16,051 bases of DNA, taken from the IMG/VR virus record IMGVR_UViG_2563366861_000001, positions 1 to 16,051 of that record; one strand, written 5' to 3'. The stretch comes from a virus (Duplodnaviria > Heunggongvirae > Uroviricota > Caudoviricetes). The notes beneath the pieces are model-generated. The model was not told the DNA's origin, did not search any database, and saw nothing but the letters and a program-made list of their open reading frames with translations. The translations under genes and the position numbers were made by a program. Shown in pieces: positions 5,381 through 16,051 of this stretch; the stretch's first letter is position 1; the number at the start of each line of letters is the position of its first letter.

Positions 5381-5809
5381 TTATTCAATATCTATTCCTG
5401 TAATATCTTTTATCTTTTTCCTTGCAAAGCCTTTTGCTAGTGATTTTGAAACACTTATTAGTGTACTAATTCCCTCATCCTTAAAGTTTGTTTTTATAGT
5501 TTGCCAGACCTCCTTTTGACGCAAGTCAGCAATAAAATCATGCCCTCTTGCTGTCAACCTCAGTGGTACTTCGATCCAACTATATCCAACACCTTCCCCT
5601 AACTCGTTGGACATTATATGACCGAACCCAGGTTTTCCATCAACCCTGACTATTAATTCGTAGTCGCATAATAATCGCATATGGAAAATAAAATTTTGGT
5701 CATATCTATTAAAGCCATTATCCTCTAGTTCACTAAGCATCGTGTCAGGGCCATGAGTTTTTTCGAATGCGATAAGTAGATCTTTTAGATATTGCTGGTC
5801 TAATTTCAT
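5381..5809 (-). CDS. Hypothetical 142-aa protein (moron gene in the int-xis-proximal accessory hotspot); function unknown
   Basis: ATG-initiated ORF with a GGAGG Shine-Dalgarno 6 nt upstream, its own downstream terminator, and AT-rich composition distinct from the flanking lambda-type genes; no family recognised. Confidence 0.65.
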   Translation of the reverse strand: MKLDQQYLKDLLIAFEKTHGPDTMLSELEDNGFNRYDQNFIFHMRLLCDYELIVRVDGKPGFGHIMSNELGEGVGYSWIEVPLRLTARGHDFIADLRQKEVWQTIKTNFKDEGISTLISVSKSLAKGFARKKIKDITGIDIE

Positions 5810-6176: not shown

Positions 6177-6370
6177 TCTGCTTTTCCTGCATTAGGAGAA
6201 AGACAATCATGGCGGCGCGGATACTTCCGGTATCTTTTTACTCGATATTACCCTTCAATGGCACATACAAGAAGAGAGCCATCAACAGGAGTGAGTGAGG
6301 AATCGACAACCAGCAACGCTTAATTATCTATAGTGTCGTATTTGCTTCATAAAATATGGCGAATAACACA

Positions 6371-6404
6371 AAGCCCGCAGCAGCTCATTGTGCGGGCTTT
6401 TCTT
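6371..6404. terminator. Candidate bidirectional intrinsic terminator between convergent transcription units (9-bp stem AAGCCCGCA / TGCGGGCTT, T-run on the plus side)
   Basis: Perfect inverted repeat at 6371-6379 / 6391-6399 followed by TTTCTT; lies about 70 nt past the stop of the 204-aa minus-strand gene. Confidence 0.5.
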
Positions 6405-6469: not shown

Positions 6470-7084
6470 TTATCTAAAAGTCTTTCCACTTTTAACGTCT
6501 AGGTATATTCTGTTCGACAACGTCATTCCTCCGCAATATGTGAAATAGATGTTTTTCCCCTTATTGCTTGATGCCATCCACCCTCCGATTTCCTTAAAGT
6601 CGCTTTCCGTGCAGACCCCTTCGTTTATTAACTTCCTAGCTGCCGAAGAAAACTCTTTTTTGTATATACGGTAGTCATCAGATCCTTTGATTAAAGTATC
6701 ATCTCCGCTCGCATTTTCAGCAGGATCTGATGGCCTTTCACTGCTAAGATCACTAAGTTTAACCCATTCTGAAAACTTGCCATTGACGATTCCGTTTTTT
6801 CTTGTGCAGGATTTATTACCTTCTTTAATATATTCGCTTTCCCCTCCCACACATGAGGCTGAATATGGCTCAGTTATACGAACCCATTCACCTTTTTTTT
6901 CTAGAAAATCTACGCCTTCCCTGAAAAATAGTTTCCCAGCCACTCCACATTTACTTGAAGGGCAGGTATGTCTTTCCGTTCGATCAACAACAACCCAAAG
7001 TCTTGATTCATTTTTTGCCATTGCCGATGGTATTTGAGATGAGACAATTAACGTAAGCCCTAAAATTAGTATTGATTTTTTCAT
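6470..7084 (-). CDS. Hypothetical secreted, cysteine-rich 204-aa protein (moron); function unknown
   Basis: ATG start with an AAGGA Shine-Dalgarno; N-terminus MKKSILILGLTLIVSSQIPSAMA is a typical Sec signal peptide; 7 Cys in the mature part; low GC; terminator downstream. Confidence 0.65.
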   Translation of the reverse strand: MKKSILILGLTLIVSSQIPSAMAKNESRLWVVVDRTERHTCPSSKCGVAGKLFFREGVDFLEKKGEWVRITEPYSASCVGGESEYIKEGNKSCTRKNGIVNGKFSEWVKLSDLSSERPSDPAENASGDDTLIKGSDDYRIYKKEFSSAARKLINEGVCTESDFKEIGGWMASSNKGKNIYFTYCGGMTLSNRIYLDVKSGKTFR

Positions 7085-7530
7085 TGTAATTTCCTTTTAC
7101 TTTTTACAAAGCGTTTAATCATGGCTGATTATCTTTAAGCGTAGTAACAGCCTTGTGCGAAACATGTTACCAAATCGCCATTTCAGTGTATCCGCAGTTA
7201 GGCTGCCACTTCAAGGATTCCTAATTACATGGTACGTAAGCGTAAAATCCCGTTGGTTGTCGGGTAATAACTCTGATCAAATCTCCCTTGTCTTTTGCTC
7301 TTACGTATGCAGCTCTTGTGTATTCAACCCAGGCCTCCAGTTCAGCAATACGCTTACTTCCATCCGAGATAACACCTTCTACTCACGCTGCTCGTTGAGT
7401 TTTGATTTTTGCTGTCTCCAGCTCAACACGCAGTTTCCTCACCGTTAGCGCAATATCCTCGTTCTCCTGGTCGCGGCGTTTGATGTACTGCTGGTTTCTT
7501 TCCCGTTCATCCAGCAGTGTCAGCACAATC

Positions 7531-7563
7531 GATGGTACGCTGCAGGATAATGTCCGGTGTCAT
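7531..7563 (-). pseudogene. exo: Remnant of lambda exo (first 10 codons MTPDIILQRT only), then unrelated sequence
   Basis: ATG overlaps the bet stop (ATGA) exactly as in lambda; reading diverges from remembered lambda Exo after codon 10 and hits a stop 8 codons later. Confidence 0.6.
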
Positions 7564-8009
7564 GCTGCCACCTTCTGCTCAGTGGCTTTCTGTTTCAGGA
7601 ATCCAAGAGCTTTCACTGCTTCGGCCTGTGTCAGTTCTGACGATGCGCGAATGTCGCGGCGAAATATCTGGGAACAGAGCGGCAATAAGTCGTCATCCCA
7701 TGTTTTGTCCAGGGCAATCAGCAGAGTGTTAATCTCCTGCATGGTTTCATCGTTAACCGGAGTAATGTCGCGTTCCGGCTGACGTTCTGCGGTGTATGCG
7801 GTATTTTCGACAATGCGCTCGGCTTCATCCTTGTCATAGATACCAGCAAATCCGAAGGCCAGACGGGCACACTGAATCATGGCTTTATGCCGTAACATCC
7901 GTTTGGGATGCGACTGCCACGGCCCCGTAATTTCTCTGCCTTCGCGGGTTTTGAATGGTTCGCGGCGGCATTCATCCATCCACTCGGTAACGCAGATCGG
8001 ATGATTACC
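7560..8009 (-). pseudogene. bet: Remnant of lambda bet (Red-beta): C-terminal ~150 codons only, 5' portion deleted
   Basis: Translation NHPICVTEWMDECRREPFKTREGREITGPWQSHPKRMLRHKAMIQCARLAFGFAGIYDKDEAERIVENTAYTAERQPERDITPVNDETMQEINTLLIALDKTWDDDLLPLCSQIFRRDIRASSELTQAEAVKALGFLKQKATEQKVAA matches the remembered C-terminus of lambda Bet; homology stops near 8009. Confidence 0.88.
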
Positions 8010-8165
8010 GGTTCGCTACCAGGGAAGAACGGGAAGGAAAGGTGAGCACGAATCTGATTTTCAAGGAGTGTCGCCAGAGTGCCGCGATGAAGCGGGTGTT
8101 GGCATTTTATCGCGGCAATTTTCAATAGACTATGTACATAAAAATATCATTTTTTTAATACATGT

Positions 8166-8613: not shown

Positions 8614-9174
8614 ATGAAGAAGATAATATTATTAGCCATGATTATTGGTTCTTTAACAGGTTGCGCTAGTGTGCCACCATTGAATTTTTCAACACCTAAC
8701 GTGGGAGTTAGCCAGAAAAAAATAGATGCTGAAATTAAGTCATTAACGGTATCACTTGCTCGTCCAGATGAGCAGAAAGGGGATATCACTGCTGGTATGG
8801 AGGCTATAACTCCAATTTGGCGTGAATCTTTGCAGGAAGCACTCGACCGAATGACTATTTTTCGTGATAGTTCACCAAATACGGTTAGCTTAAATGTTAA
8901 AGTGTTGGCTCTTGACGTTCCTGCTTTTGGTGTTTCAATGACAACTAAAGCAATTGCAAGGTATGAAATAATCAACCGTGCGAATGGTGATATTATATAT
9001 ACGCAGGATATTGAGTCTACCGGTACTGTTCCAGCCAGTTACGCATTCTACGGTATTGTTCGAGCACGCGAATCTGTTAATCGCGCGGTGCAAAACAACA
9101 TAACGCAGTTCTTGCAAGCATTAGAAAGTGTTGATCTTTCTCGTCCAATGTTTCCTGTTAGGGTAGCTAAATGA
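8614..9174 (+). CDS. Putative lipoprotein, 186 aa (signal peptide plus lipobox LTGC); possibly YajG-like, function unknown
   Basis: MKKIILLAMIIGSLTGCAS… lipoprotein signal; ATG with upstream AAGG; stop overlaps the next gene's start (ATGA); low GC. Confidence 0.7.
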   Translation: MKKIILLAMIIGSLTGCASVPPLNFSTPNVGVSQKKIDAEIKSLTVSLARPDEQKGDITAGMEAITPIWRESLQEALDRMTIFRDSSPNTVSLNVKVLALDVPAFGVSMTTKAIARYEIINRANGDIIYTQDIESTGTVPASYAFYGIVRARESVNRAVQNNITQFLQALESVDLSRPMFPVRVAK

Positions 9175-9623
9175 AGCGATTATTCGTAATTGCTCCACTC
9201 TTAGTGTTGGTTGGATGCGCACAAAATATATCGCCAAATAGTTATTCTGTTGGCTCTGTGGGCATGGTTAATCGAACTATCGCTGGTACAGTTATTAGTG
9301 CTAGGGGGGTTGATATCAGTGGGACTTCCGCGTTAGGCGGGACTGCTGGGGCTGCCGTGGGGGCAACCGCTGGTTCTGCGCTTGGTGGGGGAGTTCGTTC
9401 TAATATCGTTGGTGCCGTTGGTGGTGCAGTCATTGGTGGTATTGCCGGGGCAGCAATCGAATCTTCAGCAACAAAACAAACAGGCATGGAATATGTTGTC
9501 GAAACTGAGAATGGGAATTTAATGACCATTGTTCAAGGCAAAGATCCGTTATTTACTCAAGGAAGTAAGGTCCTTGTTTTATACGGAAACCCTTCTCGCA
9601 TAATAACAGACCCGCGTCACTAA
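9171..9623 (+). CDS. SlyB-like outer-membrane lipoprotein with a glycine-zipper domain, 150 aa
   Basis: Lipobox LLVLVGCA, then the Gly-rich segment GTSALGGTAGAAVGATAGSALGGGVRSNIVGAVGGAVIGGIAGAAIE and a C-terminal region resembling SlyB/Pcp (family assignment from memory). Confidence 0.7.
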   Translation: MKRLFVIAPLLVLVGCAQNISPNSYSVGSVGMVNRTIAGTVISARGVDISGTSALGGTAGAAVGATAGSALGGGVRSNIVGAVGGAVIGGIAGAAIESSATKQTGMEYVVETENGNLMTIVQGKDPLFTQGSKVLVLYGNPSRIITDPRH

Positions 9624-11875: not shown

Positions 11876-12958
11876 TTAGAACTGGTAAACCATACCTACA
11901 GCAACGATATCATCGGTAGCAACGCCAGATGCTTTCGTGAAATCGCTCTTATCAATCAGGTTGATTTTGTAATCAACAAAAGTGGACATATTTTTGTTGA
12001 AGTAATAGGTTGCACCTACATCAATATATTCAACCAGGTCCTGATCACCCCACGCACCCAAGTCTTTTCCTTTAGATTGCAGGTAAGCAACGGACGGACG
12101 CAGACCGAAGTCGAACTGATATTGTGCAACTACTTCGAAGTTTTGTGCTTTGTTGGCAATATGGTTATTACCAAAAACAGTCATGTTCTGGGTTTCAGAA
12201 TAGGTGGTAGCCAGATAGATGTTGTTCGCATCATATTTCAGACCAGCTGCCCATACTTCAGCATTTTGACCAGATGCATTCAGGCTGTTGTTACCGTAGA
12301 TAACCTGATTATTAGTGCGGTCAGATTTAGCATAGGTTGCACCTACACCGAATCCTTCATACTCATAAGTAGTGGAGAAACCGAAACCATCACCATTAGC
12401 TTCAGTTACGTCAGTGCGGTCATTTTTACCCTGATACTGAGCAGCAAAGTTCAGACCATCAACCAGACCAAAGAAGTCATTGTTACGATAAGTTGCAACA
12501 CCTGTGGTGCGACCAGTCATGAATACATCTGTTTGGGTCCAGGTATCGCCACCGAATTCTGGCAGAACGTCGGTCCATGCACCAATATCGTATGCTACAC
12601 CGTAGTTACGGCCATAATCGATGGAGCCGTAGTCACCGAATTTCAGGCCAGCGAAGGCAAGACGGGTTTTATCTTTGGAGGAACCTTGAGATTCAGCGCG
12701 GTTGCCTTTGAATTCATATTCCCACTGACCGAAACCAGTCAGTTGATCGTTGATTTGGGTTTCACCTTTGAAGCCAAGACGGGCATAAGTAGTATCACCA
12801 TCATCTGCATCATTAGAGGAGAAGTAGTGCTTAGCATTAACTTTCCCGTACAGATCCAGCTTGTTACTGTCTTTATTATAAATTTCAGCTGCCTGAGCAG
12901 ACATCGCCATCAGTACTGATGCAGCTACAGCAGAAATTGCCACTGTTAATTTTTTCAT
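11876..12958 (-). CDS. nmpC: Phage-borne OmpC-family general porin (NmpC/Lc type), 360-aa precursor, apparently full length; start taken at [11 protein letters not shown]…
   Basis: Signal peptide [23 protein letters not shown], mature N-terminus [17 protein letters not shown]…, C-terminal …VAVGMVYQF with terminal Phe typical of porins; located between Q and the holin as in DLP12 and PA-2. Confidence 0.9.
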
Positions 12959-13384
12959 CGTGAGCCCTTTTTTTGAACTATTATTAAAAAATGATGTCAC
13001 TGCGCGATAAATATTCATCTAATCAATGTGATTATTTCAAGATGTAAGTTTTGGTTTCTCATTTGATTTGTGAAGTAGATCTCTATTTTTATCTGAACTT
13101 TTTCTATCGAATCCTATTCATGGCTCTTGGCTGAATAAAAATAAATCTATTAGCCAATTTATATTAATGGCTGTTATTTATAAGTGCTCTATAATTTGAA
13201 GATTCAATTTAAACCAGCTAAAAATAACGCTGGAAATTATTTGTTGGTTATTTGTTGAGATTTGCTTATGTATTTGTAGTGGTGTTTTCAATACTCGGTA
13301 GCATTCTCGCAAATATCATTTAGTGGTTTACGTACGTAAAAAATTGGTTATGCTGTTAAGAGTGGTTACTTCGTCACACAGCTT

Positions 13385-14747: not shown

Positions 14748-15041
14748 TTATTGTGAGCAATACACACGCGCTTCCAGCGGAGTATAAATGCCTAAAGTAA
14801 TAAAACCGAGCAATCCATTTACGAATGTTTGCTGGGTTTCTGTTTTAACAACATTTTCTGCGCCGCCACAAATTTTGGCTGCATCGACAGTTTTCTTCTG
14901 CCCAATTCCAGAAACGAAGAAATGATGGGTGATGGTTTCCTTTGGTGCTACTGCTGCCGGTTTGTTTTGAACAGTAAACGTCTGTTGAGCACATCCTGTA
15001 ATAAGCAGGGCCAGCGCAGTAGCGAGTAGCATTTTTTTCAT
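14748..15041 (-). CDS. bor: Bor lipoprotein (serum-resistance lysogenic-conversion factor), 97 aa
   Basis: MKKMLLATALALLITGCAQQTFTVQNKPAAVAPKETITHHFFVSGIGQKKTVDAAKICGGAENVVKTETQQTFVNGLLGFITLGIYTPLEARVYCSQ; recognised as lambda Bor / DLP12 BorD. Confidence 0.9.
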   Translation of the reverse strand: MKKMLLATALALLITGCAQQTFTVQNKPAAVAPKETITHHFFVSGIGQKKTVDAAKICGGAENVVKTETQQTFVNGLLGFITLGIYTPLEARVYCSQ

Positions 15042-15587: not shown

Positions 15588-16051
15588 GGTAATGACTCCA
15601 ACTTATTGATAGTGTTTTATGTTCAGATAATGCCCGATGACTTTGTCATGCAGCTCCACCGATTTTGAGAACGACAGCGACTTCCGTCCCAGCCGTGCCA
15701 GGTGCTGCCTCAGATTCAGGTTATGCCGCTCAATTCGCTGCGTATATCGCTTGCTGATTACGTGCAGCTTTCCCTTCAGGCGGGATTCATACAGCGGCCA
15801 GCCATCCGTCATCCATATCACCACGTCAAAGGGTGACAGCAGGCTCATAAGACGCCCCAGCGTCGCCATAGTGCGTTCACCGAATACGTGCGCAACAACC
15901 GTCTTCCGGAGCCTGTCATACGCGTAAAACAGCCAGCGCTGGCGCGATTTAGCCCCGACGTATCCCCACTGTTCGTCCATTTCCGCGCAGACGATGACGT
16001 CACTGCCCGGCTGTATGCGCGAGGTTACCGACTGCGGCCTGAGTTTTTTAA
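15588..16051 (-). mobile_element. IS1: IS1 insertion sequence, partial (runs off the window end), inverted relative to the IS1 at 1-187
   Basis: Begins with the IS1 terminal repeat GGTAATGACTCCAACTTATTGATAGTG at 15588; 15588-15774 is the exact reverse complement of 1-187. Confidence 0.95.
15603..16049 (-). CDS. insB: IS1 transposase InsB reading frame (5' end outside window)
   Basis: …[68 protein letters not shown]…HYLNIKHYQ, recognised as IS1 InsB. Confidence 0.92.

What the first reader, a model, noticed from the sequence alone, without database searches (positions are those of the whole stretch)
6470..7084. Secreted cysteine-rich 204-aa protein as a stand-alone moron
Clear Sec signal peptide, seven cysteines in the mature part (likely periplasmic disulfides), its own ribosome-binding site and terminator, and low GC relative to the flanking genes. 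Prophage-encoded secreted or periplasmic proteins often act in lysogenic conversion or superinfection exclusion. I do not recognise the family.
Basis: partly seen in the sequence, partly recalled or inferred. Interest (0 to 1): 0.5.

Follow-up and report, generated by a model that had tools for sequence, protein, structure and literature searches.

The report
Exported SH3b protein cassette in prophage
A real, strongly conserved gene in a decayed E. coli lambda-like prophage encodes an exported two-domain protein, a cell-wall-binding-type SH3b domain plus a small disulfide-locked domain with no known relative; it travels as a single-gene cassette on phages, plasmids and islands of many Proteobacteria, and its function is untested.

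Summary
The ORF (6470-7084, minus strand, 204 aa) is real. It is under strong purifying selection (dN/dS about 0.09 against an 88%-identical E. fergusonii copy) and is a full-length match to PHROG 8310 (unknown function). It occurs in 132 of 5426 complete E. coli genomes.

It has a classic Sec/SPase-I leader (cleavage predicted after AMA23), an AAGGA ribosome-binding site, a downstream hairpin and low GC. It has six cysteines, not seven. All six are conserved, and they are lost in pairs in relatives, which implies disulfides 41-46, 78-93 and 158-184.

The family has more than 1600 clusters and no conserved partner gene. It sits in accessory slots of prophages, a phage-plasmid, a conjugative-element-like plasmid region, integrase islands and a 5.3-kb plasmid.

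"Stand-alone moron" is largely supported, but its promoter is only a weak, conserved candidate. The function is unknown. My best guess, at low confidence, is a peptidoglycan-tethered periplasmic binder or inhibitor that protects the envelope, by phage exclusion or immunity to wall-degrading enzymes. A recurrent linkage to umuD/umuC genes is unexplained.

The parts
7185..7214 (-). Candidate sigma-70 promoter: -35 TTGAAG (7214-7209), 18-nt spacer, -10 TACACT (7190-7185)
   Evidence: It matches the consensus at only 8/12, below the scan cut-off. Both hexamers are identical in the E. fergusonii copy (L099 2371-2400), while 5 of the 18 spacer bases differ. This is inferred and not shown to be active.
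7085..7184 (-). Conserved 100-nt 5' leader with a predicted long-range stem
   Evidence: About 80% identical between the E. coli and E. fergusonii cassettes, although the upstream genes differ. RNAalifold predicts a stem with half-compensatory changes only and no double compensations in 5 sequences. No Rfam family matches.
7092..7096 (-). Ribosome-binding site AAGGA, 7 nt upstream of the ATG
   Evidence: Read directly from the sequence. Conserved in the E. fergusonii copy.
6470..7084 (-). Coding sequence, 204 aa plus stop
   Evidence: PHROG 8310 at E 3.6e-136 over the full length. dN/dS 0.085-0.097. The same 204-aa length occurs in E. coli, Citrobacter, Pseudomonas and Aeromonas copies.
7016..7084 (-). 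Sec signal peptide, residues 1-23, predicted SPase I cleavage after A-M-A
   Evidence: Sequence features. Low AlphaFold confidence: residues 1-6 below 50, block means 45 and 51 for residues 1-20. Most relatives carry a Sec-like leader, a lipobox or a TM anchor at the same place by a crude heuristic: 107 Sec-like, 23 lipobox-like, 48 with a long N-extension holding a hydrophobic segment.
6749..7003 (-). SH3b-like domain (residues about 28-112) with a Cys-containing insert; inferred disulfides C41-C46 and C78-C93
6473..6700 (-). C-terminal alpha/beta domain (residues 129-204): three helices and a three-stranded sheet, inferred C158-C184 disulfide, motifs SDD, GGW-x-S and YFTYCGG
6360..6401 (.). 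Hairpin (stem 6373-6379 / 6391-6397) flanked by A- and T-rich runs; probable bidirectional intrinsic terminator and the downstream end of the cassette
   Evidence: RNAfold gives -19 kcal/mol, z -1.5. The scan calls it on the plus strand only. An equivalent GCCCGC...GCGGG hairpin with a different loop follows the E. fergusonii copy, where it is a clear bidirectional terminator.

Best explanation
Shown. This is a functional single-gene accessory cassette (leader, RBS, ORF, hairpin) lodged in the variable xis-ea22 slot of a defective lambda-like prophage at att-lambda.

Inferred from sequence and model: its product is exported by Sec, cleaved after Ala23 and stapled by three periplasmic disulfides. 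It consists of an SH3b domain joined by a conserved RPxDP linker to a small Cys-locked alpha/beta domain that has no characterised relative.

Inferred mechanism. The SH3b domain tethers the protein to peptidoglycan, or to a wall-associated partner, in the periplasm. The C-terminal domain is the working part, because it also exists alone as a lipoprotein. It probably acts as a binding or inhibitor module rather than an enzyme. It would shield the sacculus or block wall-degrading enzymes that arrive from outside: phage tail lysozymes or transglycosylases during DNA injection, or muralytic toxins of competitors. That would give the carrier cell, and hence the mobile element, a stand-alone protective benefit.

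The identity and anatomy are near certain. The protective mechanism is a low-confidence inference.
For: - The gene is real and constrained: dN/dS is 0.085 and the exact protein was seen on at least 1000 contigs.
- Export: Sec leader. Relatives always carry a leader, a lipobox or a TM anchor with the two domains outside. Six conserved cysteines are lost only in pairs.
- SH3b fold with the best matches to wall-binding modules.
- No conserved neighbour gene across about 90 loci, so it acts alone.
- It is carried in classic cargo positions: the exo-xis slot, between the lysis cassette and terminase, between Q and holin, next to integrases of small islands, on a plasmid region flanked by integrating-conjugative-element genes, and as one of the few genes of a 5.3-kb ColE1-type plasmid.
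- A precedent for the proposed logic is T4 Spackle, a small periplasmic disulfide-containing inhibitor of the tail lysozyme gp5 (PMC7677548, PMC7650644).
Against: - There is no functional datum of any kind.
- There is no sequence or fold similarity to Spackle, Ivy, MliC/PliC, PliG, Cor, Llp or any PADLOC model.
- Peptidoglycan binding by this SH3b domain is assumed from the fold.
- The Pfam SH3_3 score of this protein is below threshold.
- Distant relatives in Vibrio are syntenic chromosomal genes next to secDF and a diguanylate cyclase. That fits a general envelope role as well as a defence role.
- Expression in the lysogen is unproven. In intact phages the slot is read from pL early in lytic growth (PMC4195576), and pL is deleted in this prophage.
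- The recurrent linkage to umuD/umuC is not explained by this model.
Confidence: 0.35

Rival explanations
1. An SOS- or induction-linked envelope factor that serves the mobile element itself. It would be made when the element is induced (from pL, or from LexA-controlled umuD-type promoters). It would bind peptidoglycan to modulate host wall hydrolases or lysis timing, or to stabilise filamenting cells, rather than defend against outsiders.
For: - The exo-xis slot is transcribed from pL early after induction (PMC4195576).
- In E. fergusonii, a LexA box and a promoter-like site head an S24 (UmuD'-like) gene, followed by the homologue and then a strong terminator, with no terminator in between.
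- A homologue sits inside a umuD-X-umuC operon with gaps of 44 and 9 nt.
- A LexA box, umuD and umuC lie directly upstream of the homologue in a Burkholderiales MAG.
- A umuC fragment lies 0.6 kb upstream in L085, and umuDC lies 2-6 kb away in L142, L135 and L048.
- The window and all E. coli copies keep a fragment of the same S24 gene 151 nt downstream.
Against: - Most loci (about 80 of 90) show no umuDC nearby.
- Order and orientation differ between lineages, as expected if both are simply frequent cargo of the same accessory regions.
- There is no LexA box near the gene in the window.
- The overall LexA-box count in the loci is at chance level (expectation is my own estimate).
- The gene is not adjacent to lysis genes in any locus.
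Confidence: 0.2
2. A general envelope-fitness or host-interaction factor (lysogenic conversion in the broad sense). It would act as an adaptor that links peptidoglycan to another envelope component, or as a factor that alters surface properties, stress tolerance or colonisation, with no role against phages or toxins.
For: - Distant relatives are conserved, syntenic chromosomal genes in Vibrio.
- Architectures with ankyrin repeats, coiled coils or several SH3b repeats suggest scaffolding.
- The same defective prophage retains other envelope genes: an OmpC-like porin, Bor and two lipoprotein-like genes.
Against: - The close relatives (60% identity or more) are found almost only on mobile elements, and their neighbours vary.
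- A 5.3-kb plasmid carrying it as main cargo argues for a direct, portable selective benefit.
Confidence: 0.15
3. A wall-modifying enzyme. The C-terminal domain would be a new, very small catalytic domain (hydrolase or modifying enzyme) aimed at peptidoglycan by the SH3b domain, in the way endolysins and autolysins pair a binding module with a catalytic module.
For: - The C-domain has invariant polar residues: S135, D136/D137, S172, N191 and several Tyr/Trp.
Against: - The domain has about 75 residues.
- It has no resemblance to any hydrolase fold and no Pfam, NCBIfam or PHROG enzyme match.
- Stand-alone lipoprotein versions are more typical of binders or inhibitors.
- The invariant residues include many glycines and aromatics, typical of a structural core.
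Confidence: 0.1
4. A chance ORF or a decaying remnant without function in a cryptic prophage.
For: - The prophage is defective: recT is truncated and fused to a ren fragment, and there is no N/cI/cro/O/P.
- The flanking ea22-like and S24 genes are fragments.
Against: - The reading frame is intact.
- dN/dS is below 0.1.
- The protein is identical or near-identical in 132 complete genomes and in a viable phage.
- Six cysteines and the domain cores are conserved down to 30% identity.
- The structure model is confident.
Confidence: 0.01

Closest known systems
SH3b (bacterial SH3, Pfam SH3_3) cell-wall-binding domains of endolysins, lysostaphin and NlpC/P60 peptidases
   Different: It carries a roughly 20-residue insert and two disulfides that are absent from classical SH3b domains. 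It is paired not with a known catalytic domain but with a novel 75-residue domain. The host is Gram-negative and the location periplasmic. Ligand binding is untested.
T4 Spackle (gp61.3), periplasmic inhibitor of the tail lysozyme gp5 (PMC7677548, PMC7650644)
   Same: A small, Sec-exported, phage-encoded single-gene product acting in the periplasm. It is the model for how such a protein could block superinfection at the peptidoglycan step.
   Different: No sequence or fold similarity. Nothing comparable appeared in the PDB searches. Spackle has no SH3b domain and comes from a virulent phage. No exclusion phenotype is known for the present protein.
Periplasmic lysozyme inhibitors Ivy, MliC/PliC and PliG
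   Same: Periplasmic or lipoprotein-anchored small proteins, often disulfide-bonded, that protect peptidoglycan from muralytic enzymes. Family members switch between soluble and lipoprotein forms, as here.
Lambdoid morons that encode envelope proteins (Bor, Lom, Cor)
   Same: An accessory gene of a lambdoid prophage with an exported product, deviant GC and its own terminator-like hairpin. bor and an OmpC-like porin gene lie in the same window.
   Different: It lies in the early-left exo-xis slot, co-oriented with pL, not in the late region. It is not a lipoprotein. It is unrelated in sequence. Expression in the lysogen is not shown.
Lambda exo-xis region genes ea8.5 and ea22 (PMC4195576, PMC3824215)
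   Same: It occupies the same slot between xis and the remnant of ea22. The slot is known to hold non-essential genes read from pL.
   Different: Those genes are cytoplasmic regulators of the lysis-lysogeny decision. This protein is exported and unrelated to them.

Membership tests
PHROG 8310 (phage protein family, unknown function) | Full-length profile match | tested here: met
   E 3.6e-136, residues 1-204 on profile positions 1-204 of 204.
Bacterial SH3 domain (SH3b; Pfam PF08239 SH3_3) | Sequence score at or above the Pfam gathering threshold (27 bits) | tested here: not met
   This protein scores 16.1 bits, E 0.013, residues 40-72. The Cys-less homologue P0145 scores 35 bits and P0086 scores 26.7 bits, so the family is linked to SH3_3 only through its relatives.
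Bacterial SH3 domain (SH3b; Pfam PF08239 SH3_3) | SH3-like beta-barrel fold resembling solved SH3b domains | tested here: met
Bacterial SH3 domain (SH3b; Pfam PF08239 SH3_3) | Binds peptidoglycan or another wall polymer | not testable with these tools
   Needs a sacculus or muropeptide binding assay.
Sec-dependent signal peptide (SPase I type) | Basic n-region, hydrophobic h-region of 10-15 residues, small residues at -3 and -1, no lipobox cysteine | tested here: met
   MKK / SILILGLTLIV / SSQIPSAMA|K, with the first Cys at residue 41. Equivalent leaders, lipoboxes or TM anchors occur in relatives.
Sec-dependent signal peptide (SPase I type) | Call by a trained predictor, or experimental processing | not tested
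   No SignalP-type tool was available.
Moron (autonomous accessory cassette in a phage genome) | Absent from otherwise homologous phage genomes | tested here: met
   Lambda and Stx-phage homology resumes at about window 7336. Only phage Chlobot, of 50,697 phage records, carries the gene.
Moron (autonomous accessory cassette in a phage genome) | Own promoter | tested here: inconclusive
   No site reaching 9/12 lies on the gene's strand. An 8/12 candidate, TTGAAG-18-TACACT, has hexamers conserved in a second context while its spacer differs. No expression data exist.
Moron (autonomous accessory cassette in a phage genome) | Own terminator | tested here: inconclusive
   Hairpin at 6373-6397, -19 kcal/mol, z -1.5, with a U-rich but interrupted tail on the gene's strand. 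The equivalent hairpin after the E. fergusonii copy is a clear bidirectional terminator.
Moron (autonomous accessory cassette in a phage genome) | Base composition unlike the surrounding phage genes | tested here: met
   39.2% GC against 45-52% for int, xis and recT. The neighbouring DUF2513 gene is also low, at 36%.
Known superinfection-exclusion or anti-phage defence proteins (PADLOC models; PHROG families with a function) | Profile match to a described family | tested here: not met
   No PADLOC hit at E up to 1. The only PHROG hit is the unknown-function family 8310.
Periplasmic lysozyme inhibitors (Ivy, MliC/PliC, PliG) and T4 Spackle | Sequence or fold similarity | tested here: not met

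The most novel reading that the evidence does not exclude
The C-terminal 75-residue Cys-locked domain is a new class of periplasmic inhibitor or immunity module. It would be delivered either alone as a lipoprotein or tethered to peptidoglycan by an SH3b domain, and spread by phages, plasmids and islands as a one-gene defence. It would block wall-penetrating enzymes of incoming phages or competitors' muralytic toxins. In some elements it would be wired to the SOS response through umuD-type promoters.
Probability: 0.15. Interest if true: 0.7.

Novelty: new variant of a known kind. Interest (0 to 1): 0.45.

Why it matters
Single-gene, exported cargo of prophages is a recognised source of phage-exclusion, immunity and virulence traits, yet few have a mechanism.

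This family is large: more than 1600 clusters at 50% identity, spread across Alpha-, Beta- and Gammaproteobacteria, Campylobacterota and Acidobacteriota. It is highly constrained, repeatedly mobilised, and has no Pfam or NCBIfam model for its working domain.

It is a compact, directly testable candidate. A 204-aa ORF can be cloned and assayed against phage panels and muralytic toxins. A high-confidence structural model is available to guide mutagenesis.

Even a negative result on defence would define a new periplasmic domain family. The recurring umuD/umuC linkage, if real, would connect an envelope protein to the SOS regulon of mobile elements.

Tried and rejected
1. Pfam, NCBIfam and PADLOC scans of the whole protein and of the C-domain alone gave nothing beyond a weak SH3_3 hit.
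2. PDB sequence searches with the protein and with two profiles gave only spurious summed hits to de novo designed TIM barrels (no single stretch passes) and E 0.13 hits to two SH3b NMR structures.
4. The AFDB library was unavailable.
5. Conserved-partner search. I called ORFs and ran all-against-all BLAST over about 90 loci. Only lineage-specific synteny appeared: Vibrio, and the Pseudomonas integrase. This rejects an effector-immunity pair or a multi-gene system.
6. Pfam and PADLOC scans of the Pseudomonas island and Citrobacter plasmid neighbours gave KilA-N and DUF6971 only, with no defence models.
7. LexA-box search. There is none near the gene in the window. The total count in the loci is about what chance gives. 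Only the boxes directly in front of umuD-like genes are meaningful.
8. An Rfam scan of the window gave no family.
9. Literature searches by protein accession, PHROG id, and SH3b/prophage/exclusion terms found no paper on this family.
10. The leader-RNA structure has too few divergent sequences and no double compensatory changes. I left it as an observation.
11. Fusions to enzymatic domains were sought in two homology searches and none was found.

Full report
**Setting**

The window is an E. coli chromosome segment. ybhJ and ybhC are followed by a lambda-type integrase and excisionase, that is, a prophage at att-lambda.

The prophage is defective. recT is truncated and abuts a ren fragment, so N, pL, cI, cro, O and P are missing. 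Further on lie ninB/ybcN, rusA, Q, an OmpC-like porin, lysis genes, bor and IS1.

The finding lies between the ea22 remnant and xis, on the same strand as int and xis.

**Observation check**

The ORF 6470-7084 (minus strand) is as described: ATG start, 204 codons, AAGGA 7 nt upstream.

The N-terminus MKKSILILGLTLIVSSQIPSAMA|KNE has every feature of a Sec/SPase-I leader and no lipobox cysteine. AlphaFold places residues 1-20 at low confidence (block means 45 and 51; residues 1-6 below 50), as expected for a leader.

The cysteine count is six, not seven: positions 41, 46, 78, 93, 158 and 184.

GC is 39% against 46% for the window. The low-GC block also covers the DUF2513 gene downstream, at 36%.

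The 'terminator' is a GCCCGCA/TGCGGGC hairpin at 6373-6397. It is moderately stable (-19 kcal/mol, z -1.5). It has a clean T-run only on the opposite strand and an interrupted U-run on the gene's strand.

The gene is certainly real.
- dN/dS is 0.085 at dS 0.71 against an 88%-identical E. fergusonii copy, and 0.097 against phage Chlobot.
- The identical protein is recorded on at least 1000 contigs.
- It matches PHROG 8310 end to end.

**Anatomy of the protein**

An alignment of 36 relatives shows two conserved blocks joined by an RPxDP linker. AlphaFold with this alignment gives pLDDT 90.5.

The C-terminal 75 residues were modelled alone at pLDDT 91.5. They form three helices packed on a three-stranded sheet.
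- They have no viral-structure neighbour.
- They have no Pfam match at E up to 10.

Across 220 aligned relatives, C158 and C184 are invariant (231 of 231 sequences that have the domain). The four N-domain cysteines disappear only in pairs, 41 with 46 or 78 with 93. This implies three disulfides and fits an oxidising compartment.

**Family and architectures**

A profile search of 1.8 billion representatives finds 1659 clusters at E up to 0.001 and 179 at E up to 1e-30.

The SH3b-C unit is preceded by one of the following:
- a Sec leader
- a lipobox
- a zinc-ribbon plus TM anchor
- ankyrin repeats
- coiled coils
- extra SH3b repeats

A second search with the C-domain profile shows many stand-alone 100-110-aa exported or lipoprotein versions. 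They occur in Rhizobium, Agrobacterium and Marinobacter, and also in phage contigs.

No relative carries a recognisable catalytic domain. The C-domain is therefore the autonomous working module, and SH3b is an optional targeting add-on.

**Genomic contexts**

In E. coli the gene is present in 132 of 5426 complete genomes and in one sequenced phage, Chlobot. There it lies between a DksA-like gene and a UmuD-like fragment, upstream of DUF2513, xis and int. Near-identical plasmid copies examined (one Enterobacter plasmid) are a prophage fragment next to IS26.

Lambda and Stx-phage homology resumes only at about 7336. The gene therefore fills the variable part of the exo-xis region, which is normally read from pL (PMC4195576).

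More distant copies occur in these places:

| Context | Identity to the window protein |
|---|---|
| 5.3-kb ColRNAI plasmid of Citrobacter | 64% |
| Directly after tyrosine integrases of small Pseudomonas islands | 62-69% |
| Between Q and holin in an Aeromonas prophage | 65% |
| Between the lysis cassette and terminase in a 46-kb prophage | 65% |
| On a Pseudomonas veronii plasmid region flanked by integrating-conjugative-element genes | 58% |
| Amid IS elements | 42-46% |

Distant Vibrio relatives are syntenic chromosomal genes.

I called ORFs and clustered them all-against-all over about 90 loci. No neighbour was conserved beyond lineage-specific synteny. The protein works without a dedicated partner.

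**Is it a moron?**

The E. coli and E. fergusonii copies share about 145 nt upstream of the start codon (from about 7227), the ORF, and a stem-conserved hairpin. The flanks are unrelated: an ea22 remnant in one, an S24 peptidase gene in the other. So the unit that moves is leader plus ORF plus hairpin.

Within the shared leader, TTGAAG-18 nt-TACACT (7214-7185) is the only promoter-like site. It matches the consensus at just 8/12 and was missed by the scan. Both hexamers are identical in the two copies, while five spacer positions differ.

The remaining 100-nt leader is about 80% conserved and is predicted to form a long stem. The changes are only half-compensatory, and no Rfam family matches.

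In this defective prophage pL is gone. Any expression must therefore come from such a promoter or from read-through. This is untested.

My verdict is that the cassette nature is supported and its autonomy of expression is not shown.

**Mechanism**

Steps that rest on direct sequence, conservation and model evidence:
- an exported, disulfide-bonded protein
- an SH3b fold
- a novel, autonomous C-domain
- a single-gene mobile cassette under strong constraint

Inferred steps:
- SH3b tethers the protein to peptidoglycan.
- The C-domain is a binder or inhibitor. The reasons are its small size, the absence of catalytic relatives, the existence of lipoprotein-only versions, and weak fold neighbours that are binding or inhibitor modules.
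- The benefit is protection of the wall against muralytic enzymes of incoming phages or competitors. The precedent is T4 Spackle inhibiting gp5 (PMC7677548).

I give this 0.35. The rivals are:
- an induction- or SOS-linked factor that serves the element (0.2)
- a general envelope or host-interaction factor (0.15)
- a tiny novel wall-modifying enzyme (0.1)
- a non-functional remnant (0.01, effectively excluded)

**The umuD/umuC linkage**

This is an unexpected regularity.
- In E. fergusonii the homologue follows a LexA-box-headed S24 (UmuD'-like) gene, with no terminator between them.
- All E. coli copies, including the window (6209-6319), keep a fragment of that same S24 gene 151 nt downstream.
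- In two related metagenomic contigs the homologue sits between umuD and umuC, with gaps of 44 and 9 nt.
- A Burkholderiales MAG has a LexA box, umuD and umuC directly upstream.
- L085 has a umuC fragment 0.6 kb upstream. L142, L135 and L048 have umuDC 2-6 kb away.

That makes five independent lineages within about 1 kb, out of about 90 loci. This is well above what a random gene would show, by my own rough estimate of 0.1-1%. Order and orientation vary, so shared residence in cargo regions remains a sufficient explanation.

**Comparison and novelty**

The protein is a member of PHROG 8310 and, by fold, of the SH3b superfamily. It fails the Pfam SH3_3 sequence threshold itself.

It is not a member of any described exclusion, defence or lysozyme-inhibitor family. 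It works, at most by analogy, like Spackle or Ivy/MliC-type protectors.

The kind of thing, an envelope-directed accessory cassette of a temperate phage, is known. The working domain and the family are uncharacterised. I therefore rate it 'new variant of a known kind', with interest 0.45.

Noticed in passing
window 6209-6319 (minus strand); L099 1916-3218; L020 4019-6411; L063 6370-8564; L085 1011-2674; L142 3147-7597: Homologues of the 204-aa gene are repeatedly found next to umuD-like (S24) or umuC genes. The order is S24 then X in an E. fergusonii phage-plasmid with a LexA box. It is X then an S24 fragment in all E. coli copies, including the window. It is umuD-X-umuC in two metagenome contigs. 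It is LexA box, umuD, umuC, then X in a Burkholderiales MAG. umuDC lies 2-6 kb away in three more loci. It is not resolved whether this is shared cargo location or SOS-linked expression.
   Followed up: partly
window 7085-7184 (minus strand): The 100-nt 5' leader of the gene is about 80% conserved between the E. coli and E. fergusonii cassettes. It is predicted to form a long stem that closes the region (the GGC-GATT / AATCAGCC arms become a perfect 8-bp stem in E. fergusonii through an insertion plus a substitution). There are only half-compensatory changes and no Rfam match.
   Followed up: partly
window 5381-5809 (minus strand); L076 7947-8709: A DUF2513 gene lies downstream of the 204-aa gene in all E. 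coli copies. In Marinobacter litoralis a stand-alone C-domain lipoprotein (106 aa) is followed 80 nt later by a DUF2513-like gene. These are only two independent instances and could be chance.
   Followed up: partly
window 7560-8125: The prophage lacks its whole immunity and replication region. A recT fragment (C-terminal part only) abuts a ren fragment, so pL, N, cI, cro, O and P are deleted. The element is cryptic and cannot be induced normally.
   Followed up: partly
window 8614-9623 (plus strand): Two overlapping exported or lipoprotein-like genes sit in a low-GC block (34-41%) where the immunity region would be. One is 186 aa with a lipobox-like LTGCAS. The other is 150 aa with LVGCAQ and a glycine-zipper (Rick_17kDa_Anti) segment. 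They are annotated only as hypothetical in a related genome and may be further envelope cargo.
   Followed up: no
window 11876-13018 (minus strand), 14748-15041 (minus strand), 15603-15980 (minus strand): The same defective prophage keeps an OmpC-like porin gene after Q and a bor serum-resistance lipoprotein gene after the lysis cassette. An IS1 transposase fragment lies at the window's end.
   Followed up: no
L005 6402-12411; L008 6647-16615; L009-L011; L018 5184-10786: In Pseudomonas the homologue is the first gene after the integrase of a small (about 5-6 kb) island. The island's other genes (KilA-N-domain, DUF6971-like, a 333-337-aa protein, and 105-aa and 130-aa proteins) recur between species. 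The island type was not identified; it may be a satellite or a mini-integrative element.
   Followed up: no
window 6687-7037 (plus strand): A 116-aa antisense ORF lies wholly inside the 204-aa gene. It has no support and is taken as a by-product of the coding strand's composition.
   Followed up: no
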